A stretch of 63,595 nt of DNA, counting the filler, from Chrysochromulina tobinii (Eukaryota): the NCBI GenBank assembly GCA_001275005.1. It is 5 parts of 5 records of this genome, joined end to end, with 100 filler letters (N's around TTAATTAATTAA, not from the genome) between each part and the next. Parts side by side here need not be neighbours in the genome. Positions count along the whole stretch, not along the records: positions 22,828 to 39,396 come from JWZX01000695.1; positions 39,497 to 42,939 come from JWZX01000696.1; positions 43,040 to 57,970 come from JWZX01000697.1; positions 58,071 to 63,595 come from JWZX01000703.1; 1 more part is not named here. One strand, given 5' to 3'. Shown here in pieces: positions 33,293 to 61,540 of this stretch (within the stretch, counting starts at the first letter, position 1; each line of letters starts with the position of its first letter). The notes under the pieces are model-generated. The model had not been told where the DNA came from. It did not search any database and was given only the letters and a program-made list of their open reading frames with translations. A program made the position numbers and the translations under genes.

Positions 33293-35071
33293 CGGCGGCG
33301 GCGGCGGCAGCAGCGGCAGCAGCGGCCGCAGCGGCAGCAGCGGCAGCGGCAGCGGCAGCGGCAGCGGCAGTCCAGATGTGGGCCCCGATGGCGCGGACGG
33401 CGCTCGCGTTGAGAGAGGCTCTGACGCGACCTCGGACGCGCTGCCGTGGGCGCTCAACGGCCGCTGGACTTCAATTGAGCCGGTCTGGCTTGGTGCGATG
33501 CAGCTCGACTTGGACTCATCGGCAGCCACGCGAGCTGCAGTCCTGCGCGAGTGGGTAGCGTTTAGCCGTCGGCGGCTCGACCTCGGTGCGGCGCGCGCGT
33601 CGTCGTGTGCGGGCCGGGTCCTGCAACCTCGCTCGGCGCGCACGCAGACCTTCCTCGAGGTGAGCGAGGCGCGCGAGCAGATGCACAAGAACAAGTTTGT
33701 GGTCTCGGACGCGCTGTACATTGCACACGTGCTCGGGAGGGCGCTCGTAGAGCCGATGGTGTCCAACTCACGCCTTGGAGAGGAGCGACCCGAGCAGACG
33801 GTCCAGATTCGCGCCTCGTCGCGAATCGAAGACTTGCGAAGACCCGAGCAGACGGTCCAGATTCGCGCCTCGTCGCGAATCGAAGACTTGCGAAGACTTG
33901 CGGACGCGGACGCCACCAACGGTGCCGACGCTTCGAGGGACGGCAGCGGCGAGGCCGACGGCGGCGAGGGCGAGGGCGGCGGCGACGGCAGCAACGCCAA
34001 GCGTTCAGGCGAGGAGGCGTCGGAGGAGGAGGCGGAGGAGGCGGCTGCACAGGCACGTTGATTGCTACTGATGACCTGCCTTGCATGCAAGTGCTCACCA
34101 CAGCGCGTTCGGCTCTCGAGGCGGCTGCACAGGCGGGGGCCGCACGCGCCGCGAGCGCCACCAAGCAAGCGATCGCGGACGCGGACGCGGATGGCGCTCG
34201 CCGCTTCAGTAGGCTGATGCTTCGTCACTATTGGGACCTCGAGCCGTTGTGCGAGCGCTTCGATCTGGTGCCGCGCTCGATTCATCACAAGTACAAGCGG
34301 GGCGGGCACGTGGTGATTTCGCCGCGGGAGGCCAACCGCGGCATCGGGCTATGGCGACTGCACACTCGCCAGGCGGTGTTGCGAGCCTTCCGCCCCGTGC
34401 TGAGCAGCAAGACGATTGAGATTCGAGGCATGTGGCGCTCAGTCACGAACGCCGAGGCGCTGCGCATAGGGCATGCTCTGCCTTATCAGGGAGTGAGCCT
34501 GCGCCCCTCGACGTGGGAGCTCAACCCTGGCTATGAGCTCATCGCCGTGCAGCTCATCGCCGGCCTGATGGACCCGAGCGCTGGCGGCCGCTTCCTCGCC
34601 GTCCAATGGCGCTCTGAAGATTGGCACAAGCAGCTCCAAAAACGGGGCGAGGACCACACGAAGCCCGAGGCGCTGCATGCGTGTGCACGCTGGGCCGTGA
34701 GCCACATCAGTGACGAGATGCGCAAGCACGGCCTTGGTGAGGCGTATCTCGCAACTGATCTGCGCGGCGGTGCCTCGGGCACGTATGCCGTCGGAGTCGC
34801 GCAGGCGGAGGCGCTGCAGATACTCTACAAGGCGGTGCCGCGCATGAACAACCCTCGAATGCGCGCCTTCATTGATGCCATCCCGGACGCGGGCGTTCGC
34901 GCCAACGTGGAGACAGCCATCTGCCTCAAGGCCACCGTGCTGCTCGCGACGACTGGCCAGTGCAAGGACTGCGAGCATGCGCGCCGCTGTGCCAAGATGT
35001 CCTCCGCGTTTGGCCACTACATCGTCGAGCGGCGCCAGGCATTCATGCGGCCGACGAGTCCACTCTTCTGA
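31923..35071 (+). CDS. Cys-rich-repeat protein with C-terminal O-fucosyltransferase-like (GT-B) domain; 2 exons, GC-AG intron
   Basis: Exons 31923-34052 and 34133-35071 are in frame. LGRALVEP, FLAVQWRSE, YLATD, VETAICLKA and SSAF...I match POFUT-type motifs. N-terminal PAN-like CC..C...C unit and repeated A..N.L...C...C.[FY]...GW.Y....C units. Confidence 0.65.
33787..33894 (+). repeat. Exact 54-nt in-frame tandem duplication (RPEQTVQIRASSRIEDLR x2)
   Basis: 33787-33840 equals 33841-33894. Confidence 0.9.
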
Positions 35072-35376
35072 TCCCCCAGGTGCGGCATTTCGAAATAAGC
35101 GCGCGTGCACCCTAGAAGCTGGTGACCCGGTGACATGGAGCCTATACGCGTGTCTTACCAGTCACGCGCGATACATCCTACATACTTGACTTGTCTTGAA
35201 TTGACCTGTTGCTGCGCGGGGGGGCGACGAAACTGACTTTCATCACATGTCATCAGCAACGCGTGAATGACCGTGGTGCTCCTGTGACGGCATCGACCGA
35301 AGCGCTCGCAAGCCGCGGTAGGGTACCACTTTTCTTACACCCTGGAGACAACACACGCCGGTTGACGCGCATCCGA

Positions 35377-42939: not shown

Positions 42940-43039
42940 NNNNNNNNNNNNNNNNNNNNNNNNNNNNNNNNNNNNNNNNNNNNTTAATTAATTAANNNNN
43001 NNNNNNNNNNNNNNNNNNNNNNNNNNNNNNNNNNNNNNN
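42940..43039. other. Artificial contig linker
   Basis: N44-TTAATTAATTAA-N44. Confidence 0.97.
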
Positions 43040-46000
43040 AAGCTACGGAGTTGCTCACTGGCTATCTGGACTCGCAGGCCTCCTGCGAGCACGGCGAGGA
43101 GGGTCTGCTCATCAATGTGCACCCCACGACGACCGCTAGGCTGTTTCGCGAGTCCCTCGTGAAACGCGCTCCCAGCCATCCAAGCAGTCGCTTCCGCCAC
43201 GCAAACAAGGAGCAAGAGTGGACACACGTGAAGACGGTCCACTCGATCCACTCGACGATGCTCAAGGCCGCGCTCACCCACGAGCACACGATGGTTGTCG
43301 AGGCCAACTGCGTGTCGGTCGACATGTCCACCCCACTCTTCGACGGTCGGTACACCAGGGCACGGTCGAACTGCGAATACACCATTGAAAGCACGCAAAG
43401 CTTAGGAGAATTCGGCATGACGCGCGTCTTCCTGGCGATCGTCACCATGCGCTTACCGGGCGGCTTGAATGCGGGCGCGTGCGATGGCGTGACGGACAAG
43501 CTCAAGCCCGTCAACGCGACGATCTTCATGAGCACCGAGCGCGTGGGCGTCATCGAGCTACCGGTCCTCGATGAGGACGGCTCGATGAGCGTCTCCATCG
43601 GACGGTACGTGATCGACCCGCATGGCCTGCAAGATACTATCGAGTGGGATGAGGACAAACGACTCATTTGGTCCAAGTTAGGCCAGGCGTACGAGAAGAC
43701 AAGCAGCATTGAGGACGCGGAGGTCGGGATTCTGAAACGGAACGCGGATGCGTGGTTGCACTGGAATTGGGGACTCGATCGCATCGACACATGGCAGATC
43801 GACCTTAACAACGAGTACCGCTTCGGCTACGCGACAGGTGAAGGCACCACGCTGTTCAACCTGGACACAGGTGTCGCCGTCTATCACGACGACTTCGGCC
43901 GTGCGCTCGGCCGTGCGCGCGGCGGCTACTCGGCTGGCTGTGCGGATGGGACGGAGCTCACCTGCCTGGACAAATGGATTTACCCGGGCACCGTAGACGA
44001 CGGTGTGATGGCGCGCAACAGGACGACGTTCAAGGGCTGCTCCGAGCACGGCACGCACACCTCGTCGACCGCTGTGGGCACGAAGTACGGTGTCTCTAGC
44101 GGCGCCAAGCTCGTCGCGGTGCAGGTGCTCAGTTGCGACGGCGTCGGGTCGGATGCGACGATCCTCGCCGGCCTCGACTGGTCCATCAACCACGCTCTTA
44201 CGCAGAGGCCGTGGCGCCCTTCCGTTGCGTCCCTCTCTCTGGGAGGCCCACGTGGTCAATCGATCGCGTACAACGACGCGGTGAAGAGCATCTCAGCGAT
44301 AAGCATGCTCATCGTCGTGGCGGCGGGCAACGACGCTGGTGACTCGTGCGCCGAGTCACCGGCCGACATCGCGGAGGCCATGACGGTGGGTGCGAGCACC
44401 CTGATTCAGCCCGATGTAGAGGACGGCAAGTTGCTGCAGCTCGCATCAGGCGAGGCACCGCCTCTCTATGACGTCCAAGCAGAGTACAGCGACATGGGCT
44501 CATGCGTCGACCTCTTTGCCCCAAGCTCGCAGATTCTCACCGCCGTCCCTACGTACGGCTCGACGCACATTGCGGGCATCCTCTCGGGCACGTCGATGGC
44601 GACGCCCTTCGTTGCGGGCATCGCACTGCAAATCCTCGGGTTCGTCCCAAGTTTTCATGCTGACAACGTGACGCGCGCTCTCCACACGCTGCTGATTACC
44701 TTCCTCATCTCGGGCATCTGGTACGAGCGTGCCGCCGCCGTCGCCGCCGCGTTCAAGACGATTACCGAGCAGTACGAATTCTTTGCGAATCTTGACTTTG
44801 TGGTAGGCGTGTCGACGCTGCTCGTGCAATTACTGTGTTTCTCGCACAAGTACTCACTGTGCTGGCTTGGCTTCCACTGCACGCTCGTGGCCGAGCCGAT
44901 CGCAATGGCCGTTGGGCTGTGCATCGCTAACGTGCATCCAGGGCTGCTCTCGATCGCCCTCCTATATGGGTTCCGCAAGATCATGCACTACTCCAAGCCG
45001 GCCAAGGAGGGGCTGTACGCGTCGCTGCCCAAGGAAGTCGTCTTCATCACCAAGCCGCTGCTCCAAACGCTCGTCTATCGCGCCGGCTCGCTTGTGGGTG
45101 TGGCCTACTTCACCGCCGCCATCCAGTGGGGACTTAGCCCCAAGGTTCGTCAGTACATGCTTCTTGGGGTCGCCGTTGGTTGGGCGGCCAATTGCTTTTG
45201 GCTGGGCATCCTCGCCGAGCGCCACCAGCAGGCGCAGGACGAGCAGTTGCGGGACAGTCACGGCTGCGCTTCCCGGCTTGCCCCCTCCCGCCGCTCGATG
45301 AAAGTGTATCCGGCGCTCTGCATACTTGGAGGTCTCGTTGTCGTCAGCGGCAATTCTGGTGATGGTTTTGTCTCTGCTGCGCGTTCAAACGGTTCTCCAA
45401 GCCAATCATGTATCCGCATTGGTTTCCTTGGCCGGGCAGATATCGTCAAGCCGGCACTATTTACGCCCGCTGCGCGCCGCCCGGGCATGGTGGCCATTGT
45501 TGGGCTTGCGGCGCGGTCTGTGCAGGATGCAATCGCCTTCAAGCAGCAGCACTTGGAATACCTTTCAAATGCAACTGTGTACTCCAGTTACAGCGCGCTC
45601 CTTACGAGCCCGGACGTTGATGGTGTGTACATTGCATTGCCGACCAGCTTACACTTTGAGTGGGCGGCGCTTGCTCTCGCGGCCGGTAAGCACGTTCTTC
45701 TTGAGAAGCCACTTACTTCGAATGCTGTACAGGCTGAAGCACTGGTAGCACTTGCACGGCAGCGCAATCTTGTGCTCATGCACGGCTTGCACAACCTGCA
45801 CCATCCAATGATAGCGCGCGTGCGTGCGCTCGTACGCGGGCTAGGCAAACTACGCCACGCAGAAGCAAAACTGATCATGCCGAAGAAGTGGATTCAGAGG
45901 AAGGGGTCGCGCTATGACTCAGCTCTCTCGGGAGGCAGCGCCATGGACCTTGCTGGCTACGTGCTGAGCACGCTCCTAGAAATTCTGTATGACGATAGTC

Positions 46001-48486
46001 ACGAGAAAAGCTGCGACGTTCGCAGCACTGTCGCAACTCGTTGGCCAAAGGATCCCCTGATCGACGAGGGTATGGAAGGGGACATTCTCATTGGCGGCTT
46101 ATCGGTGCGCTTCGCCTGGTCTCTGATTGGTGAGAAGACTCCTGAAACAAAAGAGCTGCGTGTGGTGGGCTCCAACGGCACTTTGGTTGTATTCGGCTTC
46201 CAGGCACCTCAGTTCGGCAATTCGATCACTCTGCACGCGCATGACGGAACAGTGGTGCATCGCCAGTCCTTTGACAAGGCTATTACTACTTATGGCAACC
46301 AGGTGTCACATTTTACAGCCGCGGTGACACGCATTCGCAGTGGAGCAGTTTCCGACGCGGCATCCTTTGTGAACACGGGCGCTGCCTCGGTGCGTCTGAT
46401 GCGGTGCATCGACGCTGTCTACACGAGTGCGGGTATGCAACCAAGAGCCGGGCTGATTGAGCGGCCGCCACCAAGGGCATGCGCTAGCATAGCACGCGGA
46501 GCACCCGTGCACACTACTGCTGCATGTGATCAAGCCGAAGCTAGCCTACTTGGATCTGCCGGCAACGAGGGTGCAAAGAGTGGGATCAATTTCACCACTG
46601 CACTCACGGTGCGTACGCCTGTGTCCACCGACGGTGGTGCGCAGCTGCGCGCCATTTTGTACACAAGTGGTGCGGCATTAGTCAAACATGCTTTGTCAGC
46701 CGCGCAGCTCCAGCGCATCTTTGCGGCGATCGAAAAGCAAGGTCGGTGGCGCCTGCCGCCACTTGATAAAAGGAACGGGGTTGAAAATCAGCCTCGCCGC
46801 CTGAAAGCAGTGCTGAGCTCGTCGACAGGCTCATCGTCGCTCTCACCCCCGGAGCTTCTGTCAAGCGTGTTTGAGCCTATCTACGCACTGGCAGAGGCGG
46901 CCCTGTCTGGTGCGGTTGATAGTGGAGCAATACTCAAGCTGGCACGCCGACGCTTGCACAGGGATGAAGACACTACTTCCGACTCAATACTGGAGGAGGT
47001 CCACCTTAACTCGGCGCTCTCTGATAGCAAGCACCAAAATCCGCACTATGACCAAGCCTATAATGATCCTCATCTGCTTCTGACGATAGATATCCCGTTA
47101 GTTGAAGTCACTGATGAACTTGGTCCGCTTGAAGTGTGGCCAGGTACCCAAGGCATCCCCCTCGAGCAGCTCTTCAGTAGATCAACAATCAAGGCGCTGC
47201 GTTCTGCGGGTGGCGGCTCTCTGCAGTACAGAGCATGCTGGTGCGAGGTGAATCACGTGTTGGGTCGGAACTTTCCAAGCGTCCGGCTCCTCTCTGGCAT
47301 TGGGGACGCAGTAGTGCGCTTTCCTTCCACGTGGCACCGTGGCACACCGAATCGTCACCCTTCCCAGGTACGTGATATGGTGACCTTTGTATGGCGCCTC
47401 GCAAGACCAGCTGCTGTACCCGTTTGGTTGAAGTTACGGAAAGAGACTCCGCCAAGCTTGCCGCATGGACGCAACTTGAAGCTTGCCGCATGGCCGCATG
47501 GACCAAGCTTGCCGCATGGACGCAACTTGAAGCTTGCCGCATGGCCGCATGGACCAAGCTTGCCGCATGGAAGCGTAACAAGCCGCCCAAGCCCTCAGCT
47601 TGTGGCCGGCTGGCGCGTAACTGAAGCGGAATGGTCGGCAGCACAGGAGAAAGTAGCCCACATTTTAAGAGACGTGCCGCTGAAGCATCGCGAGCGTTGC
47701 GAACGGGTGCTGCGGAATCTGCCGGATGCTGGTTTTGCGCAAGCATGGCAGGATCACTTCCTCTATCGTAATTTCTTCGCAGGGATGGTGGCCGAGTCAC
47801 AAAAGGGCTTATATATCGACATCGGCACAAATGATGCAATCAAAATATCGAACACTGCTTTCTTTGACGTATGTCTTGGCTGGACAGGCGTGTGCTTTGA
47901 GCCGCAGGCAATTTACCACGAGCGTATCCGCTCGGAGCGCAGTTGTCACTTGGTGCCTTCCTGCGTGATGGGCAGACCAACGAAAATGATTGCGACCGGC
48001 TCTGGTGGTCTTTTGACTCTGAGACCAAGCACTGTGGTGAAGGGTGGAGGCAGCGAGATTCAATGCGTCGGCTTGCGTGAATCTCTTGTCAAGTTGAAGC
48101 TAGAAATGCGCCGAGTCGACCTGATCAGCATTGACATTGAGGGCAACGAACCTAGCGTACTCAAGTGCTTACCATGGGGGAAACTCGATGTCCGAGCTGT
48201 TCTCATCGAGACCAACAAGTATCGTGACCTACGGCCGGTGGACATGTTTTTCTCTGCTCACGGCTACGTCAACGCAAAGACGTTCCTGTACAAAGCATAT
48301 AAAGATCTTTCTGGCTCTTGGTTAGACAACTTGTACGTGAAGATGCCAGGCGGAGCTCCCCTTGTTCAGCCTCCTGGTAAGCCTAGGTGCGACCGAGCAG
48401 ATTTAGCGTTCAACCCTGATTGCGATCAGTGGCGTGAATGGGCACGGCCAGATATATCAGATGGGTGGGGTGCATGCGACTCGTGA
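43040..48486 (+). CDS. Uninterrupted >1800-codon ORF: subtilisin S8 peptidase + nucleotide-translocase (TLC/MFS)-like fragment + Gfo/Idh/MocA oxidoreductase + PhyH dioxygenase + FkbM methyltransferase (5'-truncated; may be two units split at ATG 45298)
   Basis: S8: WGLDRID, LDTG, HGTH, VAAGN, SGTSMATP. TLC-like: KPAKEGLY...KP....VYRAG. Gfo: DGVYIALPTSLHFEW...GKHVLLEKP. PhyH: QNPHYD, GPLEVWPGT, WHRGTPN. FkbM: YIDIGTND...SNT.FFD..LGW.G..FEP, ISIDIEGNE. Confidence 0.75.
47452..47571 (+). repeat. 51-nt in-frame tandem repeat (PSLPHGRNLKLAAWPHG), about 2.3 copies
   Basis: Units start at 47452, 47503 and 47554, in the PhyH-FkbM linker. Confidence 0.85.
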
Positions 48487-48589
48487 TTATTGCAGATGGG
48501 TGGGATGCATGCTACTTGTGATTCTTGCAGATGGGTGGGGTGCATGCGACTCGTGATTATTGCAGATGGGTGGGGTGCATGCGACTCGT
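48459..48589 (+). repeat. ~35-nt tandem repeat copying the last codons and stop of the upstream ORF (about 4 copies)
   Basis: CAGATGGGTGGGGTGCATGCGACTCGTGATTATTG repeated with variants. Confidence 0.85.
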
Positions 48590-49473
48590 GCTCATGCTCG
48601 TGCTTGTGTGTCTGAGACATAGGGTGGGGTAGGGTAAACGACTATCCCCACCACCTGATTTTGAACTCAATGATAACCCAAGGGGTAGGGGGAGGTATTC
48701 TTTCTGGATTCTACCATGGGATTCACACACTCGATCCCCACCTCACCTGATTTTGCAAAATTTTGAACTCAGCCGTCAGCGCGCTTCGCACTTCCCCTCC
48801 GGAAAAGGCTAATAGCCTAAGGCTTACCGAAAAGGGGGGTTCGAGGGTTGGCGGGGGGGTAAGGTGTAGTCAGATGAACCCCGAGCCGTATTGGCCGTTA
48901 TACGCTTGTGGGCCGGTGGCGCGTAGGGGGGGATCAACGGACCACCCTGTCCCTGACCCTCTGCCAAGGCCCAAGGGGGGAGTTCGCTAGGCCCGCCCGA
49001 AGGTGGCCCGCCTCGTTAGGTTATAGGTACGGTCCGGTGAGACAAAAGAAAACTTTTCTACAGTGGACAGTCGAGGCAGGCAGGAGCGGTGCAGGCCCCC
49101 GTGGGGGCATCCCTTCCGGGGCAAGGCAACCTCCCCGACCGAGCTTGCCTCCCACACAGCAACTTCTCCGGAGCCATGCGCATTTCGACATACACCGCAC
49201 ACCCGCGCGGACCTCGACGCGCCGCTCAGACCACACACCATGCCACACACCCTGCCACGCGCGGCGACTCCGATGGTGGACAATCTAGAATCTTCAATCA
49301 CACCGTTCTTGGTGGTCCTCATGCAGACCTCTTTCGAGGAGGCGCGTCGTTTACGTTTGGACACGCAAGTGGACAAATGCACCTGTTATAGTGTAACGGC
49401 CGAAGCGCAGCCGTCCGACCTTCGCCCGGTCAGCCCGTCAGGTGTGAATTCGGCCCAGCTGTGAATCGCCTGG

Positions 49474-50766
49474 TCAGCCCGTCAGGGCCGATTTGTGCCA
49501 GAAGGCCATGGGATCAATGGTGTGGAAAGGGGGAGAGCCTCGCTGGTGAGAAGACCACATGGGGGAAGTGATATTCATGTTGCGGCGGTACGTCAGGATG
49601 GCTGCGCGCGACTGCAAGAACTTCCAATCATCGAAGACGATGTAACCACCGACTGTGAGAGGCGTGAGAGGCGGGTATACATGTAGAGGGCGCGTCACCC
49701 ATTTCAGGAGGTAGGGTTGTTAGTTAGGGTGAGCACAGGGTGGGCATTAGGGTGAGCATGCACCCACCTGAGAGGCGAGGGTAGAGGGCGTCAAGCGTCT
49801 CATAGATCGACACGAACATATCCGAGTCCGCGCGGATGAGTGCGAACGAGCTGCCCGGTGGTATCGTGTGGAGCGTCTCGTTGAAGAAGCCAGGCAGGAA
49901 CCTGACCTGACGAAGCACGTCACCCTCTGCGCCCTTCTCCTCGAAGCCTCCGTGCACTTTCCCGCCCTCTGGCGTACCTGCGGAAGGAGAGGGGCGCGCG
50001 CCGTGGTGGGCACTTGCATGCACGGCCCTTTTGTGTTGCTCTTCCCACAGCTCTCTGTCGTACCCATGGCTGGGAACGGCTGGTGAGTTGGGCTGCTGAG
50101 GCACGTCGACATGCGCTTCTTCACAGCGTCGAGGGGGCTGGCAAACTTGCCAGGTGTCCAATCGCGTGCCCCCGCGTACTCAAACTTGGCGGCTCGGGCG
50201 ATGCTCTCCATGTTGGTGCCTGCCCTGTTACCGCCGTCGCGCTCTGCGAACTGTCGGATGTATGCTTTCGAGGGCGGCAGGCCTCCGAAACTATCAGCGA
50301 GCCACATCTGACGAACCCGCTCGCGTGGTGCGTGGGCCGTGGCGCCCCGAAGCGTGTAGAATGCATGCAGCAGGGCCTCCATGTGCACCGAAATACCGCC
50401 CTTGTAGACCCCAGCTTCGATGAAGTCGCCTGCGATGCCGTTGTGCAGCACGTCCCAAGCAAGAGGCTCCAGCATCGTGGCACGGCGCCAGCAGTCCCAC
50501 TGGCATGCGGCTTCAGGGTCGCCTCTGTTGCTGGTCGGGAACGCTTTCGCACGGCCTATGACGCACGCCTTCGACGCATTGAGGAAGGCAAGCTGCTCTT
50601 CCGTCCACTGCTGCTGCTGGGCAAGGCGAGAAAGCTCTGAAACCTCCTCTGCGGACTGGCTCGCCAGCGGGTCATACATTGGAAGATGCGCCTTGATGCG
50701 TTGGTCAGGCGTGACTGACTTGCACACCAGGATAACTGCATGCATGTGCAGCACGTGCAGCCGCAT
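49474..50766 (-). CDS. TylF/MycF (macrocin O-methyltransferase) family protein; 3 exons
   Basis: GIAGDFIEAGVYKGG, WLADSFGGLP, VRFLPGFFNETL, ALIRADSDMFVS and LYPRLS|VGGYIVFDDW. Exons 50766-50064, 49977-49768 and 49652-49474 total 364 codons. Confidence 0.9.
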
Positions 50767-51623: not shown

Positions 51624-51779
51624 TTAGGATGGTTAGAGCAGCTCGAGCTCGCGATCTCCCCATTAGGATGGTTAGAGCAGCTCGAGCTCGCGATCTCCCC
51701 ATTAGGATGGTTAGAGCAGCTCGAGCTCGCGATCTCCCCATTAGGATGGTTAGAGCAGCTCGAGCTCGCGATCTCCCCA
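51624..51779. repeat. 39-nt exact tandem repeat x4 spanning the DGAT-like gene stop codon
   Basis: TTAGGATGGTTAGAGCAGCTCGAGCTCGCGATCTCCCCA at 51624, 51663, 51702 and 51741. Confidence 0.93.
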
Positions 51780-53495
51780 ACCAAATGCGACCTTTTGGGA
51801 GTCAAACGTGGCCACCATCTCGTCGCACAGCTTTGCATGCAGCGCGTCAATCTCGGCGTCGCTCGGGCATTTGCACGCCTCGCCTACCTCGATCGGCCGG
51901 CCGAGGACCACGGTGATCGCCGCCCGGCGCGGCACGGGAGGCAGCCCGGGGCCAAACCGCCCATACGGGAGAATGAGCGAGATTTTGAGCGTGCGCGAGA
52001 TCCATTCGCCAGCCGTGCCGAGCAGGTTGCGCAGGGGGCGTCGGGACACGAAGAACCAGCAGGGCACCAGCGGGACGCCGTGCGCCTTGGCCAGCTTCGT
52101 CAATCCCTTGCGCTTCCGAATGATGACGGCGGGAGAGGCATGGGATCGCGCCGCGTCCGTGAAGATGCCTGCAATGCCGTCGATGGCCACTCCGGTCGGG
52201 TACCTGATGCGGGATGCAATCAGAGGTCATCAGCATGCAATCAGCATGCAATGCCGTCGATGGCCACTCCGGTCGGGTACCTGATGCGGGATGCAATCAG
52301 AGGTCATCAGAGGCCACCAGAGGCCATCAAAGGTTATCCGAGGTTATTCAGAGGTTATTCAGAGGTCATCAGGGGCCATCAGAGGTTATCAGGGGCCATC
52401 AGAGGTCATCAGCGCACCCATTCGAGAGCAGTGTCGAGAGGACGTCGCGATCGGCAGGCACACACCCAATGCCATAGAAGATCTGGGAGGCGAGATTGGG
52501 GCGAGATTGGGGGGATTGGTGAGTCACCACAGACGCGGGACTGACGAAGCGCGATCGGCTAGACTTCTATATTAGGGACGGCGAGTCACCTGGCGCCAGA
52601 TTGGGAGGCGAGTCACTACCGACGCGACGCCCGCCCGCCCATGGCAGCGCGAGGTCAAGTAGGGCGAGAGCTGCCACAGGAGCCCGCCGATCGGGAAGAG
52701 CGAATGCGGTGCGCACACGTGGATGTACCTGAGGGACGGAGGCGGCGCCGTGCTGAGCACTTGCATGCCAGGCAGGTCATCAGTGGCAATCCACACACAG
52801 CTGAACGGCGCTGTGCTGAGCACTTGCATGCCAGGCAGGTCATCAGTGGCAATCCACACGTACGGTCGATCGGCGACGAACTTGTTCTCCGGGGCGAAGA
52901 CGACCCGGAACGAGAAGTAGCGGTACATCGCGCGCAGCACGAAGTTGTGCTTCAGGCCGGCGCGGGGGGCGGGCGCCCAGATCGTGAGCGCCGCGACGAG
53001 CGCCAGCGCCAGCGAGGGGAAGTAGACCCACCCGACCACGGCCCAGGAAAGCAGGGCGAGGAACACCGCGACCGGTGCAAAGGCCGGCCCTGAAAAGAAG
53101 AGGGCAAGGGCCACAATGCACACGAGCTCCTCCCACCAACCCATCGGTGCCTCGGTGGCCAGCGCGCCTGGCTCGAAGGCTCCGTCGGCGGCTTTGCGCG
53201 CGATCCCGGCCACCAGCGCGGCGTGGCTCTCCTCAGAGATGGCGGGATCACCAACTTCGGCCGGAAGTCGCCACATCTCCAGCACGGAGCACTCGGACGG
53301 GAGCCGAGCGATGAAGTCATCTGGACGTTTCCAAGTATTGCGAACGCGAAGCCCATCGGCGGAGAAGTTGGACAGGGAATTGTAGGAAGCGTCCCTCGAC
53401 AGAGGACTCGTTGGTGGGGTCTGCAGATCGCGCAGCTCGTCGGAAGTGGTCGGAGTCGTTTCGACGTTCAGCGTGTTGCGCCCGCCGCTGCCCAT
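51750..53495 (-). CDS. Diacylglycerol/monoacylglycerol acyltransferase (DGAT2/MGAT family); 4 exons
   Basis: RYFSFRVV, YIHVCAPHSLFPIG, ASVVTRLPIWRQ, DGIAGIF, RKGLTKLAKAHGVPLVP, VVLGRPI and IDALHAK. Exons 53495-52864, 52728-52590, 52482-52418 and 52203-51750 total 430 codons. Confidence 0.88.
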
Positions 53496-53972: not shown

Positions 53973-56900
53973 ATGTCGGACGACCTTGCTTTGCCGTCCG
54001 CCCGCGCGCTGGCAACGTCGCTGCTCTCGGCGGCCTTCGCGGCCGAGGGCGGCCCGCCGAGCCAGCTCTCCGAGGAGGACTTTCTTGCGGCCGAGGCCTC
54101 GGTCATCGAATGCCCGCCGTCCCCGCTCGAGTGCTGCCTTCGCGTGCACCGCCGGTGCGTCTTCGACGCGGTCAACGAGGCGCTCGACGAGCTCTCTCAG
54201 CCGCCGCCAACGCCGCGCGGGCTGTCGCTCGCCACACGCTCCGCCAACGGCGCGAAGCCCGCCTCCCGGTCGAGCAGCATCGCCTCGCTCCTGGCGGCCG
54301 CACACGAGCAGCGCATCTCGACGCTCGACTGCGAGGCGTGGACGCAGCGCGTGCTCGCGTTGATGCCCGAGCCGTCGGCGCCGCCGGTGGGGCTCGCGGT
54401 GGTACCGGACGACATCGGCGCCACCACACGGCGCGTGTGGAAGCAGCTCCTGCCCGAGTGGAGCGACTTTGGCGAGGACGAGATGGCTCTCGCCCGCTCT
54501 GAGGTTCGCTCGGATGAGAGTGCTTGATGACCTCTGATGGCCTCTGATGACCTCTGATGACGAGATGGCGCTCGCCCGCTCTGAGATTCGCTCGGATGAG
54601 AGTGCTTGATGACCTCTGATGACCTCTGATGACGTATGATTGCCTCCCTCATCAGGTGCGCTCGGCTGAGAGTGCGGCGGAGCTGCGCGAGCTGCGCGCG
54701 AAGCGCGCGGCGGAGTTGTTTTGGGAGGGGCGCGAGGCGCTCTTGCTCTCCGACGACGAGCTGCATGGCGTGCTCTGGGATGCGCTGTGTCAGTACGTGT
54801 CCCCTCCGTGGCCGGCCGAGGGGCTTGGCGACTCGGATAGCGACCCCCACGGCGAGGTGGGACGCAAGCTGCCGAAGCCGAAGCCGAAGCCGAAGAAGAA
54901 GAAGAAGAAGGAGGAGGAGGACGACGAGGGGCAGGGCGAGGAGGAGGGCGAGGAGGAGGAGGAGGAGGAGGAGCCCGAGGAGGAGGAGGTCGTCGGGGCG
55001 CGCGATCGGCATGCGCGCATCCATTACGAAGACTACCTGCTGGTATGCTGATGGCCCTGATGGCATCTTCAGTCAAGACCTGCCTGATGACGTGCCTGAT
55101 GACGTGCCTGATGACGTGCCTGATGACGTGCCTGATGGCGTCTGAGGACATGCCTGGTGACCTCCCTGATCGCCTCTCATCGCGTGCGCTCCTCTCGCCT
55201 CTCTGCTGCAGGCGCTGAGTGAGCTCGATCGTCGCAAGGTGGCACCACTGCGATCGGCGCGCCTCTTCCTCTCCCTGCGACTAGACGCGTATGGTCGCGC
55301 ATCCATCCGGTCGCTCTACGCGCTCGCGTGCTCGCTCACGCAGCTACTGACGACCCGCATTCAGCTCGCGATGCTCGAGGATGGGCACGGCCGCCTGTCG
55401 GAGCAGGTATGCCCTTTCGCTCTAGATGGACACTTGATGGACACTTGATGGACTCTTGATGGACTCTTGATGGACTCTTGATGGACTCTTGATGGACTCT
55501 TGATGGACTCTTGATGGACTCTTGATGGACTCTTGATGGACTCTTGATGGACTCTTGATGGACTCTTGATGGACTCTTGATGGACTCTTGATGGACTCTT
55601 GATGGACTCTTGATGGACTCTTGATGGACTCTTGATGGACTCTTGATGGACTCTTGATGGACTCTGCCGGCACATAATCACATTCACACTCGGTCTCTGC
55701 TCACTCGTGCCCTTTTCACACTTGCCATTTTAGGCGCTCGAGACGTTCGTCTCCGAGTCGATCCCGAGGCTCGCCCGGCTGCGTGACCACGTGCACCTGC
55801 AGCAAGGCCACTCCTTTCTGCCCTTCTACGTCGCCCATTGCGTGCGCAAGTTCTGCCTGCTGCTCGAGCCGAAGGACAAGCGTGGGGTCCCTTCCGAGAC
55901 ACTTCTGATCTCGGCGGAGCTCGCCCAGCTATGCGCGCTCGGCGAGGAGTTGCCCGATACGGCAGCTGGCCTGCGGCGCGACAGCCACTCCAGCGAGGAC
56001 ACGCCGCCCCCGAGCAGCTTGGGTGATACGCCGCCCCCGATTTGGTTCTCCCTCCCGTGCCGCCGTGGGTGTGCCGCCGCATGCATGTGCTCACCACGAC
56101 GCCCTCGCCTCCCCACAGGTGATGAGTCGAATTGGTTCTCCCTGGCCTCGGCCATCCGCGTGTACCGCCACTTCCTCGAGCTCGACACGGACCACGACGG
56201 GATGCTCACGCCGGACGAGCTCGCTTCGTATGGCGATGGACTGCTCTCGCTCACACCGGCCTTTGTGAGTAGTGGCCCCTGATCGCGCCCCTGATCGCGC
56301 CCCTGATCTCGCCCCTTTTGAGTGTGGCACTGCCCCTGATGGCCCCTGATGGCCCTTCTCATCAGGTCCCTGATTGTCCCTCTCATCAGGTCCCTGATTG
56401 TCCCTCTCATCAATTCCCCGATTGTCCCTCTCATCAGGTCCCTGATTGTCCCTCTCATCAATTCCCCGATTGTCCCTCTCATCAGGTCGGTCGCCTCTTC
56501 GAAGCCGTCCACACATACGACGGCAAGCTCGACTACAAGGGGTACCTCGACTTCGTCATCGCGCATGAGCACCGCTCCCACCCGGCGGCGCTCGCCTACT
56601 TTTTCCGCTCGCTCGACTTGCATGCGTCGGGCAAGCTCGGCGTCTTCGAGGTCAACTACTTCGTGCGCGACATTGTGCAGGGCCTGATCGACTCGGGAGA
56701 CGAGCCGCCCGGCCTTGGCACGATCGTGGATGAGGTCTTCGATCTCGTCAAGGGGAGATCGCACAAGTCGCGGGGCGCGGGCGCGCTCGAGCGCGGGCGC
56801 GTCGTCTCGGGCGCGATGCCAACGCTCTCGCTCACGGAGTTTGTGCGCTGCGGCGCGGGCTCGATCGTGATGCAGATGCTGATCGACGTGCAGGGGTTCT

Positions 56901-57910
56901 GGAATTGGGACAATCGAGAGTCCTTGATTGAGTACGATGACGACGACCGATACGCGAAGGACGAGCTCGAGGCGGCTCGACGCACCACGATCCTGTTCAG
57001 CCACGCGGCGCACCGGCGCTCCGCGCCCTCGATTGCGGCGCTGCAGGGAGATTCGCCCGAGATGTCGCCGCTGCATGAAGAGCGGCGGTTGCGCGCGGCG
57101 CGCACCATCACCACACTGCTGCTGCGCGTCCAGCGGCTCGACCACTCTCAACGCAACCCGACGCCCGCCGTCAGCCAGGTGTGCCCCCTAATGACCTCTA
57201 ATGACCTCTGATGACCTCTGATGACCTCTGATGACCTCTGATGACCTCTGATGACCTCTGATGACCTCTAATGACCTCTGATGACATCTAATCGCCTCCC
57301 TCATCAGGTGTGCCCCCTGGCGCCGGCGACCAAGCAGCCACCGTACAAGCCTCCGCCCAAGCCGTCGGGCGCGCCCCCGCCGCCGCCGACGACCCTGGCG
57401 GGCTGGAAAAAGTCCGCAGAGCAGCTCGACGAGCCCGCGTCGCCTGTGGGGTCCGACGTGACACCGCCTGGCGCCGTGTATCCTCCCGACGGCCATTTCC
57501 CGCCCGATTACTTTGTCATCCCGCCGTTACCGGCCGACGTCGAAGTCATCTACCCGACGCTTCCACAGGCGCCGCCGCCCAAGACGGCGCCCGCGCCCGC
57601 GCCGGCGCCCGCCACGGCGCTTCCGCCGCCCCTGCCGCCGCCGCCGCCGCCCGTGATGCTGCCTGACTCGCCCCCGAGCATGCCGCCCGACTCGGCGCTC
57701 AGCTCGAACAATCCCCCCCTCTCCGAGAGCACCAAGGAGAAGCCCGAGTCGTCCCGCAGAGCCGCGCCGGAAGGAGCCCGCGCCGTCCCGGGCGGAGGCG
57801 AGCGACGAGGCAGCCTCCCCCGAGGCGCCGGCGCGAGCGTTCACAGCCGGCGCGAGCGTTCACAGCCCCGAGGCGCCGGCGCGAGCGCCTTTGCCGCCGC
57901 CGCCTGCTGA
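53973..57910 (+). CDS. PPP2R3C: PP2A regulatory subunit B'' gamma (PPP2R3C/TON2-like) with N- and C-terminal extensions; 7 exons
   Basis: SFLPFYVAHCVRKF, NWFSLASAIRVYRHFLELDTDHDGML, TYDGKLDYKGYLDFV, PAALAYFF, DEVFDLVK and MLIDVQGFWNWDNRE. Exons 53973-54503, 54656-55042, 55212-55406, 55734-56022, 56119-56264, 56486-57178 and 57308-57910 are in frame (948 codons). Confidence 0.88.
55425..55665 (+). repeat. Intronic 11-nt minisatellite (GATGGACTCTT)n, about 22 copies
   Basis: Directly visible inside intron 55407-55733. Confidence 0.93.
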
Positions 57911-57970: not shown

Positions 57971-58070
57971 NNNNNNNNNNNNNNNNNNNNNNNNNNNNNN
58001 NNNNNNNNNNNNNNTTAATTAATTAANNNNNNNNNNNNNNNNNNNNNNNNNNNNNNNNNNNNNNNNNNNN
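57971..58070. other. Artificial contig linker
   Basis: N44-TTAATTAATTAA-N44, preceded by a poly-C run. Confidence 0.97.
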
Positions 58071-59564: not shown

Positions 59565-59961
59565 CGCGCCCGGTTTCCGGGTTCGTCCGGCGGTTAGCGA
59601 GTACATGTACGTCAAGGATCTAACTAACGTTAGTCATTACGACGAGAACAATCCGGACCGACCGACGCGTTCGGTCTAAGAGACTAAGACGTAGCGCTAG
59701 AACGCTCCGGACAATCATGATCGCGGGCGGCGTGACCGTCCGGCCTGAGAGATGTGAGATCTCCGTGTGTGAGCTGTGACGATGTGTCGTCGTGTGCCTG
59801 TGCGACGCCGACAGCATGGCTTTGGGGGGCGAAGACGAAGTACGAAGAGCCGCTTCGTAAGCACGATGGACAAGACCACGATACGATCGATAGGCCCCAG
59901 AGGGTCGTACGGTTCGTGGATCGTTCGATCCGCGATCACAAGATGTTGACCCTCGCCCATT

Positions 59962-61540
59962 CTATGCCACTGCATCCAAAAGCAGCCGGTTGAGCAACAT
60001 CATACTTCCACTGCACGGCTGCCAGTGTGTGCAGTCGAGCCGCGGCGTCGCGCGACTAGCGCTGGCGTCCACGCCGCCGCCGCTACCACCGCGTCGGCTC
60101 GTCCATCCCGGGTGGTCCACCCGCAATCAGATGCAATCAGATGCAATCAAATGCAATCACCTGAGTAGTGACGGGAGGTGGTCCATGTGGCGATGCACGA
60201 GAGGCCAAAAGGCGGGAAGCGTCTCGACCACACGTGCGCCGCGCATGCACGACTCTCCCTGTGAAGGGACCTGCTGTGAAGAGCCCTGCCGTGAAGAGCC
60301 CTGCTGTGAAGAGCCCCGCGCCTCCCGCGCGCCCGCGGCGGCGCTGGTGGCGGCTCCCTCGACCATTTCCATCGCGGGGCGAGCCACTCGTGCATGCAAG
60401 CGCCGCGCCTCATGCACAGAGAGTGGCATGCATCCGGCGCTCGCGTTTGCGTGACGGGCGGCGCGCGGCGGGCGGCCTGGGAAGGCTCCACCGCCGGCGT
60501 AGTGCTGCGGCAGGTGCTCACGCCAGAGGACACGTGGCCAGTGGGTGCGGCGACATGCAAGCGCGATGAGTGAGCGCACTCCGGTGGAGAGTAAGTCGAG
60601 CGCCGTGTCGAGCGCCGTGTCGAGCGCCTCGTGAGCTCGAATCTCCGCTGCCGCTGGTTCGGCGAGGGGGCTGCGCTCGGGACGACGCGAGATGCTCGCC
60701 ACGGCGCCGTGGCCGCCGTGCTCGGCCTCGGCACTGCGATCGGCAGCGTTCGGACCCCCTAACCTCGCGAGAGGGCCGTACCTGTGGGGAAATGACGCCG
60801 TGGTGAGCACTTGCATGCAGCGCCCCGAGCCTCGCCAGAGGCCCGTACCAGAGCCCCACGTTGAGCACAACGGTGCCGTCTCGGCCAACGGGTGCGAAGA
60901 GCGGATCGAGCACCCGGGCGAGCGCGGCCTCACTCGGCGGGAGCAAGTTGAGCCGGCGCACCATCAAGGTCAGCGCGGGTGCACCCCGTGCCTCGCAGTC
61001 CATCTCGGCGCCTTCGTATCGGTTCACGTAAAGGAGCTCAGGCAGCCGATCACGCAGCCGACCGCCTCGCCTCGCCGTCCGTGACGTCTGAGCCAGTGAG
61101 GTCTCTGGCCGGTGAATCCCCGTGCACTGCATGGTACGCCCGGCGCGTCGGAGCCAGGCGAGCAGCGCGTCGAATTGGAACTTCATCAGCGAATCGCCGA
61201 TGAGCATGAGCCGCCCTCGTAGGCGCCTTACGCTGTGGCGTGCCACGCTACAATTGTCGGGCACAAAGTGAGCGGGCGTACCTCGATGCTGGTCGATGCA
61301 AGGCTCCTTGTGATGCCAACCGGCAGCTGGCTTTCGGTACCAACGGCCCTGCAACGGCCGAGGTTGGAGCCGGCAGAGTGGCAGCGCCTTGGTCTCCTCG
61401 AGGCAGGACGTGCAAGCAGCGCACCGGCACCATTGGCCACAATGGCTAGGTAAGCACCAGGACTCGCACGCGGCCGGTGCGGTGTCGCGGCGCTTGCGTG
61501 GCACGCACGTCGAGCGCGTGTGAACGCTCGAGGGCTCCAT
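59962..61540 (-). CDS. SGNH/PC-esterase (trichome-birefringence-like) polysaccharide O-acetyl-modifying protein; 3 exons
   Basis: FVPDNC, LMLIGDSL, VVLNVGLW|Y, LWREHLPQHY and LDCTHW (DxxH). Introns are 60848-60782 and one from 60160 to an acceptor at 60083 or 60062 (both keep frame). Confidence 0.75.

What the first reader, a model, noticed from the sequence alone, without database searches (positions are those of the whole stretch)
34053..60819. Shared intronic element GCATGCAAGTGCTCACCAC(A/G)GCG in five unrelated genes (introner-like family)
The motif lies in sense orientation shortly before the acceptor AG at 34082-34105 (+), 49999-50022 (-), 52746-52768 and 52809-52831 (-, tandem), 56079-56101 (+) and 60796-60819 (-). 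At 34060 and at 52746-52860 it extends to a ~45-nt core, GATTGC(C/T)ACTGATGACCTGCC(T/G)GCATGCAAGTGCTCA(C/G)CAC. Host introns are short (67, 80, 86, 96 and 135 nt). It contains a branch-point-like TGCTCAC, but more than 20 conserved nt exceeds what U2 pairing needs. I see no terminal inverted repeats, unlike DNA-transposon-derived introners. Inference: a mobile, splice-competent cassette or an unusually long splicing signal.
Basis: partly seen in the sequence, partly recalled or inferred. Interest (0 to 1): 0.8.

Follow-up and report, generated by a model that had tools for sequence, protein, structure and literature searches.

The report
Intron-making mobile element in Chrysochromulina
A short repeated sequence carrying a branch site and one splice site fills five introns of unrelated genes in the alga Chrysochromulina; four are flanked by a 13-26-base copy of the gene's own sequence, so it is likely a mobile element that makes new introns, a known kind but with unusually long, variable flank duplications.

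Summary
Six copies of the 19-mer sit at the stated places (0.04 expected by chance), sense-oriented, in five introns of 67, 80, 86, 96 and 135 nt. The hosts are unrelated genes of Chrysochromulina tobinii/parva.

The "mobile cassette" reading is supported.

A capped metagenome scan gave 175 further unique copies at 132 or more distinct sites. 133 of 175 have such a repeat, against 2 of 175 mismatched-flank controls. There are two half-intron modules:
- One carries branch site, pyrimidine tract and CAG, and takes its GT from the duplication.
- The other carries GTACGT and the branch site, and takes its AG from the duplication.

Duplications are 12-44 bp and often perfect. There are no inverted repeats.

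RNA contigs and public gene models show one intron spliced. Four related organisms lack another. Two RNA-verified neighbouring introns lack the motif, so it is not a general splicing signal.

Introners that co-opt a splice site from the duplication are known, including in marine Chrysochromulina genomes. The long variable duplication is the new feature. How copies are made is unresolved. This scan found the same footprint earlier elsewhere in this genome (e1-2577349).

The parts
34053..34132 (+). Intron I1, 80 nt, GC-AG. It holds a 5'-site-carrying element (GCACGTTGATTGCTACTGATGACCTGCCTT + core + AGCGCGTTCGGCTCTC), followed by the second copy of the duplicated target, which ends in CAG and supplies the acceptor.
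   Evidence: open frame 500 aa upstream, 312 aa downstream; A-type HMM E 2.3e-18. Splicing is predicted, not shown. Unspliced, a TGA inside the element ends the frame (ORF 31905-34061).
34038..34054 (+). Left copy of the 17-bp perfect target duplication of I1. The right copy is at 34118-34134.
   Evidence: 17 nt, 100% identity, spacing 80, equal to the intron length.
49978..50063 (-). Intron I2, 86 nt, GT-AG. It holds a 3'-site-carrying element (core 50003-50021 + GGCGCGCGCCCCTCTCCTTCCGCAG). The donor comes from the duplicated target (copies at 50050-50064 and 49964-49978).
   Evidence: 15 nt, 87%, spacing 86; TylF domain split across the two exons in matching frames.
52729..52863 (-). Intron I3, 135 nt, in DGAT2. 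It consists of two tandem 63-nt units of the element (cores at 52813-52831 and 52750-52768). The second unit has both arms.
   Evidence: RNA contigs of 3 of 4 runs join 52724 to 52860 (skip of 135, CT..AC on the + strand, 4-nt ambiguity); public gene models P0126 and P0122 read FVADRP|YIHVCAPH across the junction. P0121 reads through a single-unit 72-nt form.
56023..56118 (+). Intron I4, 96 nt, GT-AG. It holds a 3'-site-carrying element (core 56079-56097 + GACGCCCTCGCCTCCCCACAG). The duplicated target has diverged: GTGAT plus the block at 56038-56050, against GTGAT plus 56128-56140.
   Evidence: 13 nt, 92%, spacing 90. The downstream exon has a weak EF-hand match below Pfam's cut-off.
60782..60848 (-). 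Intron I5, 67 nt, GT-AG. It holds a 3'-site-carrying element (core 60800-60818 + GGCGTCATTTCCCCACAG). The donor GTACGG comes from the duplicated target (copies at 60830-60849 and 60763-60782).
   Evidence: 20 nt, 90%, spacing 67; the predicted spliced protein ...NVGL-W-YGPLAR... aligns without a gap at the junction with four relatives (P0142, P0144, P0146, P0148). P0143 (96% identical) is an unspliced read-through of the same intron.

Best explanation
The six motif copies belong to a family of short (about 40-65 nt) non-coding introners of Chrysochromulina tobinii/parva. Each copy carries the branch site and one splice site, and a duplication of the insertion site (12-44 bp in the measured subset, visible in the sequence) supplies the other, so removing element plus one duplicate would restore the original message; this is shown by RNA for one copy and predicted for the rest.

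There are two complementary forms:
- The commoner G-type begins at GCATGCA, runs through the branch-site-like GTGCTCACCAC and GGCGCC, and ends in a C/T-rich tract and CCCCACAG. The copied target directly after it starts with GT, and its upstream twin becomes the 5' part of the intron and the donor.
- The A-type begins GTACGTTGATTGCCACTGATGACCTGCCTT, shares the same core and stops at CACAGCGC. Here the copied target ends in CAG, and its downstream twin becomes the 3' end of the intron.

I infer that only insertions whose duplicate happens to offer the missing site survive inside coding sequence. Copies without such geometry exist and presumably lie outside coding sequence.

After insertion, the flanking repeats likely promote tandem amplification of the unit. 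This would explain the 2-unit intron in DGAT2, which has 1 unit in a related contig.

The copying step is not shown. I favour a copy-and-paste step primed at two nicks 12-46 bp apart, templated by RNA or a single strand from an existing intron (target-primed, SINE-like), followed by fill-in. My odds for an RNA template are about 0.4.
For: Shown directly:
- Six copies in the window against 0.04 expected.
- Direct repeats spaced by exactly the intron length, and no inverted repeats.
183 have at least 100 nt on both sides; 175 of these are unique.
- 133 of 175 have a flanking direct repeat scoring 12 or more, against 2 of 175 when left and right flanks of different copies are paired.
- 133 copies are not in tandem context, and they have 132 distinct downstream flanks.
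- Among the 101 of these 133 with a strong repeat, 59 have the donor at the start of the left copy and AG at the element's end, 10 have the mirror form, 13 have the sites inside the repeat, and 19 have none.
- GT...AG is the commonest boundary pair, 66 of 101 against a mean of 5.3 over all 256 dinucleotide pairs.
- In 53 G-type copies the duplication measured from GT is 12-44 bp (median 29), the median identity is 96.8%, 19 of 53 are perfect, and the introns are 67-94 nt.
- Subfamilies: 124 of 175 continue GGCGC/GACGC, and 29 of 175 continue AGCGC and have the conserved 30-nt left arm.

Specificity control: the same pattern hits 31 loci (32 matches) in 596 Gb of prokaryote genomes. That is about the chance rate by my own rough estimate, and only 2 of the 32 continue with GACGC.

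Splicing:
- RNA contigs of 3 of 4 runs skip exactly the 135-nt intron.
- Two public gene models have the predicted junction.
- I5's predicted junction is collinear with four relatives.

Gain: four continuous ORFs from relatives (72-86% identical) run through the I1 site without any insertion.

Not a general signal: two other RNA-verified introns of DGAT2 lack the core.

Copy-number change of the unit: P0121 has 1 unit where the window has 2, and L102 has 1 unit where L041 has 2.
Against: - No whole genome was available. Copy number and the intronic, sense and intergenic shares are therefore untested genome-wide. The 141 loci come from several samples and possibly several related species.
- No empty site was seen as DNA. 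The absence of I1 in relatives rests on protein ORFs only, and loss cannot be formally excluded.
- Splicing is shown for only one of the five introns. I1 has a GC donor and no RNA evidence.
- 32 of 133 single copies lack a strong repeat. Most have short or diverged ones, and 2 look like chance hits.

Against the RNA-templated step:
- There is no poly(A) or other 3' tail.
- No reverse transcriptase partner was sought or found.
- The A-type shows variable 3' ends, not 5' ends.
- The 0-29 nt between the left duplicate and the core are heterogeneous. Only 7 of 40 end like the A-type arm, and 1 of 40 is fully explained by it.

The preference for GT-starting duplicates could reflect targeting and not selection.
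Confidence: 0.8

Rival explanations
1. The copies are made at the DNA level, not from RNA. One route would be a rolling-circle (HUH/Rep) or other copy-and-paste transposon system with imprecise ends. Another would be capture of intron-derived DNA fragments at staggered double-strand breaks that are then filled in. The splicing logic stays the same and only the copying step differs.
For: - Both element ends are somewhat fuzzy: 0-29 nt of heterogeneous sequence at the left junction and variable 3' ends in the A-type.
- There is no poly(A).
- Junctions show possible microhomology, for example L002/L017.
[quoted passage not shown] They also report one Replitron Rep locus in C. tobinii.
Against: - Nothing links these elements to a Rep gene.
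- No short terminal direct repeats or terminal hairpin were seen.
- Break capture does not explain why one core sequence dominates at 130 or more sites, unless intron-derived nucleic acid is the main donor.
Confidence: 0.35
2. It is a classical miniature DNA transposon (MITE-type introner), as in Micromonas, Aureococcus and Symbiodinium, cut and pasted by a transposase.
For: It uses the same splice-site logic as those families: one site carried and the other taken from the duplication (Roy et al. preprint text; Gozashti 2022 passages).
Against: - There are no terminal inverted repeats.
- The duplication length ranges from 12 to 44 bp and is not fixed.
- Both half-forms, which share only the core, have multiplied. 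That is hard to reconcile with transposase recognition of two defined ends.
Confidence: 0.07
3. The conserved 20-45 nt is an extended, lineage-specific branch-site or splicing signal kept by selection in ordinary old introns, and is not a mobile sequence.
For: - The core contains CTCAC, which fits a branch-site consensus.
- One unrelated RNA-verified intron has the similar GTGACTCACCA.
- The motif always lies 20-35 nt before the AG in the window.
Against: - Site-specific flanking duplications occur in 133 of 175 copies against 2 of 175 controls.
- Two of three RNA-verified introns in one gene lack the core.
- 19 of 101 copies have no splice-compatible geometry.
- Tandem arrays exist.
- I1 is absent from four relatives.
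Confidence: 0.03
4. The similarity spreads by local duplication or gene conversion between introns, not by insertion at new sites.
For: Tandem amplification of the unit is real: 36 adjacent core pairs lie 150 nt or less apart across 25 metagenome loci and the window, and the 63-nt unit in I3 is one of them.
Against: The copies lie in unrelated genes on many contigs and have 132 distinct flanks. Each copy has its own duplicated target, which conversion would not create.
Confidence: 0.02

Closest known systems
Introners that carry one splice site and recruit the other from the target-site duplication (Aureococcus anophagefferens; Symbiodinium; Polarella glacialis classes 4/5 and 6/8/10). Source: Roy et al. 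bioRxiv 10.1101/2020.10.14.339549, parts 1-2 of 4 of the text read.
   Same: - Multi-copy sequences make up introns of unrelated genes.
- One end of the element serves as the 3' (or 5') splice site, and the edge of the duplication serves as the other.
- Splicing restores the message.
   Different: Those families have fixed duplications of 3-8 nt (4-nt GHNN, 8-nt GHN6), and Symbiodinium elements end in inverted repeats. Here the duplication is 12-44 bp, variable, and makes up about a third of the intron. There are no inverted repeats.
[quoted passage not shown] Source: Gozashti et al. 2022, PMC9860276, passages and Supplementary Tables 5-6 rows read.
   Same: - Same genus.
- About 72 nt on average, 618 copies, duplication scored present, no inverted repeats.
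[quoted passage not shown]
   Different: The paper reports 4-bp duplications and 53% GC in a marine metagenome-assembled genome. Here duplications are 12-44 bp in a GC-rich (about 63%) freshwater species. Sequences could not be compared because the library is on GitHub and was not available, so identity with a published family is not excluded. The 2025 table lists 0 families for C. tobinii GCA_001275005.1.
Emiliania huxleyi small introner families. Source: Gozashti et al. 2025, PMC12130899, dataset rows read.
   Same: - Introns of about 70 nt in a haptophyte.
- One family is annotated 'co-opt 5' carry 3'' with '10bp terminal direct repeats'. Another is annotated 'carry 5' co-opt 3'' with GT and GC donors.
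- They are left unclassified as to mechanism.
   Different: Only 5-6 copies per family are listed there. No long variable duplication is described, and sequences were not compared.
SINE-type retroposons inserted by target-primed reverse transcription (general knowledge, recalled, from no call).
   Same: - Short non-coding copies.
- Variable-length target duplications of ten to tens of bp.
- No inverted repeats.
- Some 5'-shortened arms.
   Different: There is no poly(A) or simple-repeat tail, no recognised polymerase III promoter and no partner element. The A-type varies at its 3' end.
Replitron-1 and some Helitrons of Chlamydomonas reinhardtii. Source: Craig 2023, PMC10288648, passages read.
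   Same: - Copy-and-paste elements in an alga with variable-length target duplications and fuzzy ends.
- A Replitron Rep locus is reported in C. tobinii.
   Different: Those elements are 0.9-3.6 kb, with TAAAGG terminal direct repeats and an RG target. None of these features is seen here, and they have no link to introns.
Fungal introner-like elements, interpreted as spreading by reverse splicing. Described in Gozashti 2022 passages; the structural detail is recalled.
   Same: Short, no inverted repeats, strongly genic.
   Different: Ascomycete families have no target duplications. Here duplications are the rule, and the introns show no unusual folding (z -0.98 to +1.40).

Membership tests
Introner / introner-like element | Many near-identical copies that make up most of the introns of unrelated genes | tested here: met
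   There are 6 copies in 5 introns of unrelated genes. A further 175 unique copies were found elsewhere, at 132 or more distinct sites.
Introner / introner-like element | Copies lie in sense orientation and are removed by splicing | tested here: met
   I3 is shown spliced by RNA contigs of 3 of 4 runs and by two gene models. The I5 junction is supported by homology. I1, I2 and I4 are predicted from open frames only. All 6 window copies are on the coding strand.
Introner / introner-like element | Insertion footprint, with a splice site recruited from the target-site duplication | tested here: met
   133 of 175 against 2 of 175; 59 + 10 + 13 of 101 splice-compatible; GT-AG in 66 of 101 against a mean of 5.3.
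Introner / introner-like element | Lineage-specific presence (recent gain) | tested here: met
   I1 is absent from four related continuous ORFs, and 19 of 53 duplications are perfect. This is protein-level evidence for one intron only. No DNA empty site was seen.
Introner / introner-like element | Genome-wide enrichment in genes over intergenic DNA | not testable with these tools
   No whole genome is held for this window.
MITE-type (cut-and-paste DNA transposon) introner | Terminal inverted repeats | tested here: not met
   no terminal inverted repeats in four of the introns. The subfamily consensus ends (GCATGCA... / ...CCCCACAG and GTACGTT... / ...CACAGCGC) are not complementary.
MITE-type (cut-and-paste DNA transposon) introner | Short target-site duplication of fixed length (3-9 bp) | tested here: not met
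   12-44 bp with a broad spread (median 29); 15-35 bp in the mirror form.
SINE / target-primed retroposon | Variable-length target-site duplication | tested here: met
SINE / target-primed retroposon | 3' poly(A) or simple-repeat tail; 5' truncation series | tested here: not met
   No A-rich tail appears in either consensus. The simple 5'-truncation model explains 1 of 40 left junctions fully, although some subfamily arms are shortened.
SINE / target-primed retroposon | Internal polymerase III promoter or an autonomous reverse-transcriptase partner | not tested
   No genome was available to search, and no partner was sought.
Reverse-splicing fungal-type introner-like element | No target-site duplication | tested here: not met
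   Duplications are present in most copies.
Replitron / Helitron (HUH rolling-circle) non-autonomous element | Short terminal direct repeats or a 3' hairpin, and a Rep-encoding parent | tested here: inconclusive
   No terminal direct repeat or significant fold was seen. No parent could be searched for. Variable duplications are shared with Replitron-1.

The most novel reading that the evidence does not exclude
These may not be transposons in the usual sense. The cell's own introns would breed new introns. Pieces of transcribed or spliced-out introns, either donor-to-branch-site or branch-site-to-acceptor, would be copied back into the genome at nicks 12-46 bp apart. The resulting duplication of host sequence would supply the missing splice site and a third of the new intron. 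At least two unrelated element families in this window carry the same footprint: the core family and the CTGATGACC/GATTGCC satellite family. The pathway could therefore be general and account for a sizeable share of the roughly one intron per gene in Chrysochromulina. The long repeats would also allow precise loss by recombination, making intron gain reversible.
Probability: 0.25. Interest if true: 0.85.

Novelty: new variant of a known kind. Interest (0 to 1): 0.6.

Why it matters
Where new spliceosomal introns come from is a long-standing question, and introners are the best-documented source. This family matters for four reasons.
- It is in a cultured, sequenced haptophyte. The published genome-wide screen lists no introner family for this species, probably because a third of each intron is unique host sequence; that explanation is my inference.
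- Its insertion footprint, long, variable and often perfect duplications without inverted repeats, does not fit the cut-and-paste transposons thought to drive most introners. It therefore points to another integration route that could be studied in culture.
- The two complementary half-intron modules show plainly why an element must lack one splice site. With a long duplication, only a site taken from the duplicate restores the message exactly.
- In practice, the motif and the flank repeat give gene annotators a direct way to find these introns, including GC-AG ones.

Tried and rejected
- **Whole genome:** none is held, so no census was possible.
- **Read laying:** This left I1, I4 and I5 without RNA data.
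- **I2:** no RNA contig bridged it, so nothing can be said from that.
- **Species identification, failed routes:** the 1832-aa ORF gave only distant subtilase hits, and the protein atlas gave only bacterial and viral TylF clusters. The DGAT2 exon settled it.
- **Rfam:** no family in the window, so complementarity to this organism's U2 snRNA could not be tested.
- **Folding:** the five introns fold no better than shuffles (z -0.98 to +1.40).
- **Generic window scan for GT...AG units with flank repeats:** not enriched over other dinucleotide pairs (10 against 3-19), because 10-nt satellites swamp it. Only individual hits were useful.
- **Left-junction hypothesis:** I tested whether the sequence between the left duplicate and the core is always a 5'-shortened A-type arm. 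It is not supported (7 of 40 end in CTT, 1 of 40 fully explained).
- **Copies truncated inside the core:** in 157 kb, nearly all 3' halves have the full 5' half. That script's 'without 5' half' count was wrong because of an offset error, and I judged from the printed rows.
- **The one hit in the viral collection (L173/L174):** it has 66-70% GC across the four 1-kb bins and no Pfam match in 4 ORFs. It is most likely a host contig, not a virus.
- **Literature:**
  - One search was wasted by a loose term setting.
  - No paper in the library prints the motif.
  - The search 'Chrysochromulina' + 'introns' + 'direct repeats' returned 11 papers. From the listing, none describes this family.
  - Passages of the C. 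tobin genome paper mention introns only as about one per gene.
- **Not seen:** the introner sequence libraries on GitHub, files 13-14 of the 2025 supplements, and whatever was cut from the stored 2022 table. These could hold a matching family.


Full report
**1. The observation**

The 19-mer GCATGCAAGTGCTCACCAC occurs six times in the window with at most one mismatch. The places are 34083 (+), 50021 (-), 52768 (-), 52831 (-), 56079 (+) and 60818 (-). Shuffles expect 0.04, and none of 100 shuffles reached six. The longer left part, GATTGC.ACTGATGA, is present at 34060 (+) and twice at 52.8 kb (-). Profile HMMs built from copies found elsewhere detect only these six places in the window.

Reading the five loci and testing frames gives these introns:

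| Intron | Coordinates | Length | Type |
|---|---|---|---|
| I1 | 34053-34132 (+) | 80 nt | GC-AG |
| I2 | 49978-50063 (-) | 86 nt | GT-AG |
| I3 | 52729-52863 (-) | 135 nt | two tandem units |
| I4 | 56023-56118 (+) | 96 nt | GT-AG |
| I5 | 60782-60848 (-) | 67 nt | GT-AG |

Each joins open frames on both sides, and in each the motif is on the coding strand, 20-35 nt before the AG.

**2. Organism and host genes**

The upstream exon of I3's gene is 100% identical to 'diacylglycerol o-acyltransferase 2 [Chrysochromulina tobinii]' and to a JGI Chrysochromulina (Chrpa1) model. Window GC is about 0.58-0.67, and the C. tobin genome paper gives 63.4% (passages).

- I2 splits a TylF-type methyltransferase domain across its two exons.
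- I4's downstream exon has a weak EF-hand match below Pfam's cut-off.
- The I1 and I5 hosts have no Pfam family.

The genes are unrelated.

**3.

The repeat finder shows direct repeats whose spacing equals the intron length:

| Intron | Repeat | Identity | Spacing |
|---|---|---|---|
| I1 | 17 nt | 100% | 80 |
| I2 | 15 nt | 87% | 86 |
| I5 | 20 nt | 90% | 67 |
| I4 | 13 nt | 92% | 90 (an indel has occurred in the 96-nt intron) |

There are no terminal inverted repeats. In I2, I4 and I5 the 5' part of the intron is a copy of the first bases of the downstream exon and begins with the donor GT. In I1 the 3' part of the intron is a copy of the last bases of the upstream exon and ends with the acceptor CAG.

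**4. The family outside the window**

None is a window locus. They hold 185 copies. With the six window copies included, 183 copies have at least 100 nt on both sides, and 175 of those are unique.

*Flank repeats.*
- 133 of 175 have a flank repeat scoring 12 or more, with a median score of 21.
- When left and right flanks of different copies are paired, 2 of 175 reach that score, with a median of 7.
- 42 of 175 are in tandem context.
- The other 133 have 132 distinct downstream flanks.

*Geometry of the 101 single copies with a strong repeat.*
- In 59 the left copy starts at the donor and the element ends in AG.
- In 10 the geometry is mirrored: the element starts with GT and the right copy ends in AG.
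- In 13 the sites lie inside the repeat.
- In 19 there is no GT/GC...AG solution.
- GT...AG is the commonest boundary pair, 66 of 101 against a mean of 5.3 over all 256 pairs.

*The 53 G-type copies of the first geometry.*
- The duplication measured from GT is 12-44 bp (median 29).
- Median identity is 96.8%, and 19 of 53 are perfect.
- Introns are 67-94 nt.

*The 32 single copies with weaker repeats.* Most have short or diverged repeats or carry both arms. Two (L070, L095) look like chance hits.

*Specificity control.* The same pattern gives 31 loci (32 matches) in 596 Gb of prokaryote genomes, about the chance rate by my own rough estimate. Only 2 of the 32 continue with GACGC.

**5. Anatomy**

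Anchoring all copies on the core shows two subfamilies.
- 124 of 175 continue GGCGC/GACGC. They are conserved from about 6 nt before GCATGCA to GGCGCC, followed by a C/T-rich tract of variable length that ends in CCCCACAG.
- 29 of 175 continue AGCGC. They have a conserved 30-nt left arm, GTACGTTGATTGCCACTGATGACCTGCCTT.

The first form carries branch site, pyrimidine tract and acceptor. The second carries donor and branch site. A few copies carry both arms: I3's second unit, L013, L014 and L099.

With a long duplication, only a splice site at the outer edge of the duplicate lets splicing remove exactly element plus one duplicate. An element using two sites of its own would leave 12-44 extra bases in the message. 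This follows from the geometry, and I take it as the reason the half-forms dominate (inference).

The 19 copies without usable geometry show that insertion itself does not need GT. I infer that the GT rule among the rest is mostly selection.

**6. Splicing and gain**

*I3.*
- RNA contigs from three of four runs (X16, X15, X18) skip exactly 135 nt at I3. The ends are CT..AC on the + strand, with a 4-nt GTAC ambiguity.
- Gene models P0126 and P0122 read FVADRP|YIHVCAPH across the junction.
- P0121, an ORF from a 98%-identical contig, reads through a 72-nt single-unit version (24 extra residues). The 63-nt unit is therefore present once there and twice here.

*I5.*
- The predicted product ...NVGL-W-YGPLAR... 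aligns without a gap at the junction with four relatives.
- P0143 (96% identical) is an unspliced read-through of the same intron.

*I1.* Four continuous ORFs from relatives run through the site without any insertion. P0131 is 86% identical; P0132, P0134 and P0135 are 73-78% identical in the search table. For example, the window reads EEAEEAAAQ|AGAARAAS and P0131 reads EEAAEEAAAKAAAVRAAS. With its perfect 17-bp duplicate, I1 looks like a recent gain. This is protein-level evidence only, and I1's GC donor has no RNA support.

**7. Not a general splicing signal**

The same RNA contigs define two more DGAT2 introns.
- Intron 52483-52589 lacks the core but has GTGACTCACCA 37 nt before its AG.
- Intron 52204-52417 is filled with a 10-nt satellite (CTGATGACC type).

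CTCAC is probably the branch signal. The other 20 or more conserved bases are family-specific. The U2 snRNA could not be examined.

**8. A sister family with the same footprint**

- Intron 54504-54655 (+) is joined in an RNA contig (X14 record 21). It begins with a 20-nt copy (17 of 20 identical) of the downstream exon's start. It then carries TTGATGACCTCTGATG...GATTGCCTCCCTCATCAG, with an 82-nt tandem duplication.
- 52204-52280 (-) is a 77-nt unit with a perfect 34-bp duplicate starting GTACCC and a related 43-nt element.
- 3794-3888 (-) has a 12-bp duplicate starting GTAAGG and a related element.

The left arm of the A-type is made of the same 10-nt units. The duplication-making process therefore acts on more than one element family in this genome.

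**9. How copies are made**

This is not shown.

*Constraints.*
- Duplications are variable, 12-44 bp.
- There are no inverted repeats, no unusual fold and no poly(A).
- The left junction of the G-type has 0-29 nt of heterogeneous sequence. Only 7 of 40 end like the A-type arm.
- The A-type has a nested set of 3' ends.
- Shared upstream 10-mers define subfamilies, and some junctions suggest microhomology.

*Reading.* These features fit a nick-primed copy-and-paste process better than a cut-and-paste transposase. I put RNA-templated (SINE-like) copying at about 0.4. I put DNA-based routes at about 0.35. Those include break capture and a rolling-circle system such as Replitron-1, which gives variable duplications and fuzzy ends in Chlamydomonas and has one Rep locus in C. 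tobinii (passages).

Tandem arrays of the unit are common: 36 adjacent core pairs lie 150 nt or less apart. Recombination between the flanking repeats would produce them (inference).

**10. What is known**

- The logic of carrying one splice site and recruiting the other from the duplication is described for Aureococcus, Symbiodinium and Polarella, with 3-8-nt duplications (parts 1-2 of 4 of the preprint read).
- Gozashti 2022 catalogues short introners without inverted repeats in marine Chrysochromulina, Prymnesium, Haptolina and Emiliania genomes. One is a 618-copy, 72-nt Chrysochromulina family described as having 4-bp duplications, carrying the 5' site and co-opting the 3' site (passages and table rows).
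- The 2025 dataset lists small E. huxleyi families, one with '10bp terminal direct repeats'. It lists 0 families for C. tobinii GCA_001275005.1.
- No paper in the library prints the motif.
- I could not compare sequences with the published libraries.
- An earlier report of this scan (e1-2577349) described the same footprint at a 66-nt intron elsewhere in this genome. I reached the duplications from the sequence and tested them independently here.

**11. Verdict**

The kind is known. The long, variable duplication, the complementary half-intron modules and the presence in a species scored as introner-free make it a new variant worth a genome-wide census. If the window were typical, 6 copies per 63.6 kb in a 59-Mb genome would mean thousands of copies. 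This is an untested extrapolation.

Noticed in passing
window 54504-54655 (+); 52204-52417 (-), with inner unit 52204-52280; 3794-3888 (-): A second intron-borne element family is built of CTGATGACC/GATTGCC 10-nt units and ends in CATCAG. It shows the same footprint: duplicates of 20, 34 and 12 bp of the downstream exon's start, each beginning with GT. Two of the three introns are joined in RNA contigs.
   Followed up: partly
window 52296-52412, 54525-54561, 54607-54633, 57191-57289, 21693-21746, 25938-25981, 60123-60159, 55420-55665: There are many 10-11-nt satellites of the form TGATGACCTC / CCATCAGTGG / GCAATCAGAT. Those checked lie inside introns and resemble the left arm of the A-type element. 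They contain repeated CTGAT/CTGAC branch-site-like words.
   Followed up: partly
window 34053 (I1); loci L063 and L106: One subfamily of the 5'-site-carrying element has GC in place of GT as its first two bases (GCACGTTGATTGCC...). It occurs at three or more different sites and shares the tail GTTCGG(C/T)TCTC. This implies that GC-AG introns are made by this element. No RNA evidence was obtained.
   Followed up: partly
L173/L174 (IMGVR_UViG_3300027760_000958, 4554 bp): One full family member (core + GGCGCC + pyrimidine tract + CAG|GT) lies at the end of a contig filed in the viral collection. The contig has 66-70% GC across the four 1-kb bins, and 4 long ORFs have no Pfam match. It is probably algal DNA and not a virus.
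   Followed up: partly
window 33787-33897: A perfect 54-nt tandem duplication lies inside the coding exon upstream of I1 (PEQTVQIRASSRIEDLRR twice). Relatives P0131 and P0132 have no such repeat.
   Followed up: no
window 42988-48486 (+): A single 1832-aa open frame combines a subtilase S8 domain, a GFO/IDH/MocA oxidoreductase fold, a PhyH dioxygenase (weak match) and an FkbM methyltransferase. The RNA contigs laid on it differ at many places and skip one 51-nt unit of the repeat at 47452-47571. They may come from a diverged allele or paralogue.
   Followed up: no
window 18463, 18467, 26247, 50362, 50737, 51834, 59509, 60391 and the element copies: The 8-bp palindrome TGCATGCA occurs at 11 places. 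From base composition I would expect about one (rough hand estimate). Several of them cluster at 50.3-51.9 kb, between the genes that host I2 and I3.
   Followed up: no
window 48458-48590 and 51624-51779: There is a 35-nt repeat (3.8 copies) and a perfect 39-nt repeat (4 copies). The bin holding the first shows very high summed DNA-contig depth (2220 against about 45-90 in neighbouring bins). It is probably a dispersed repeat.
   Followed up: no
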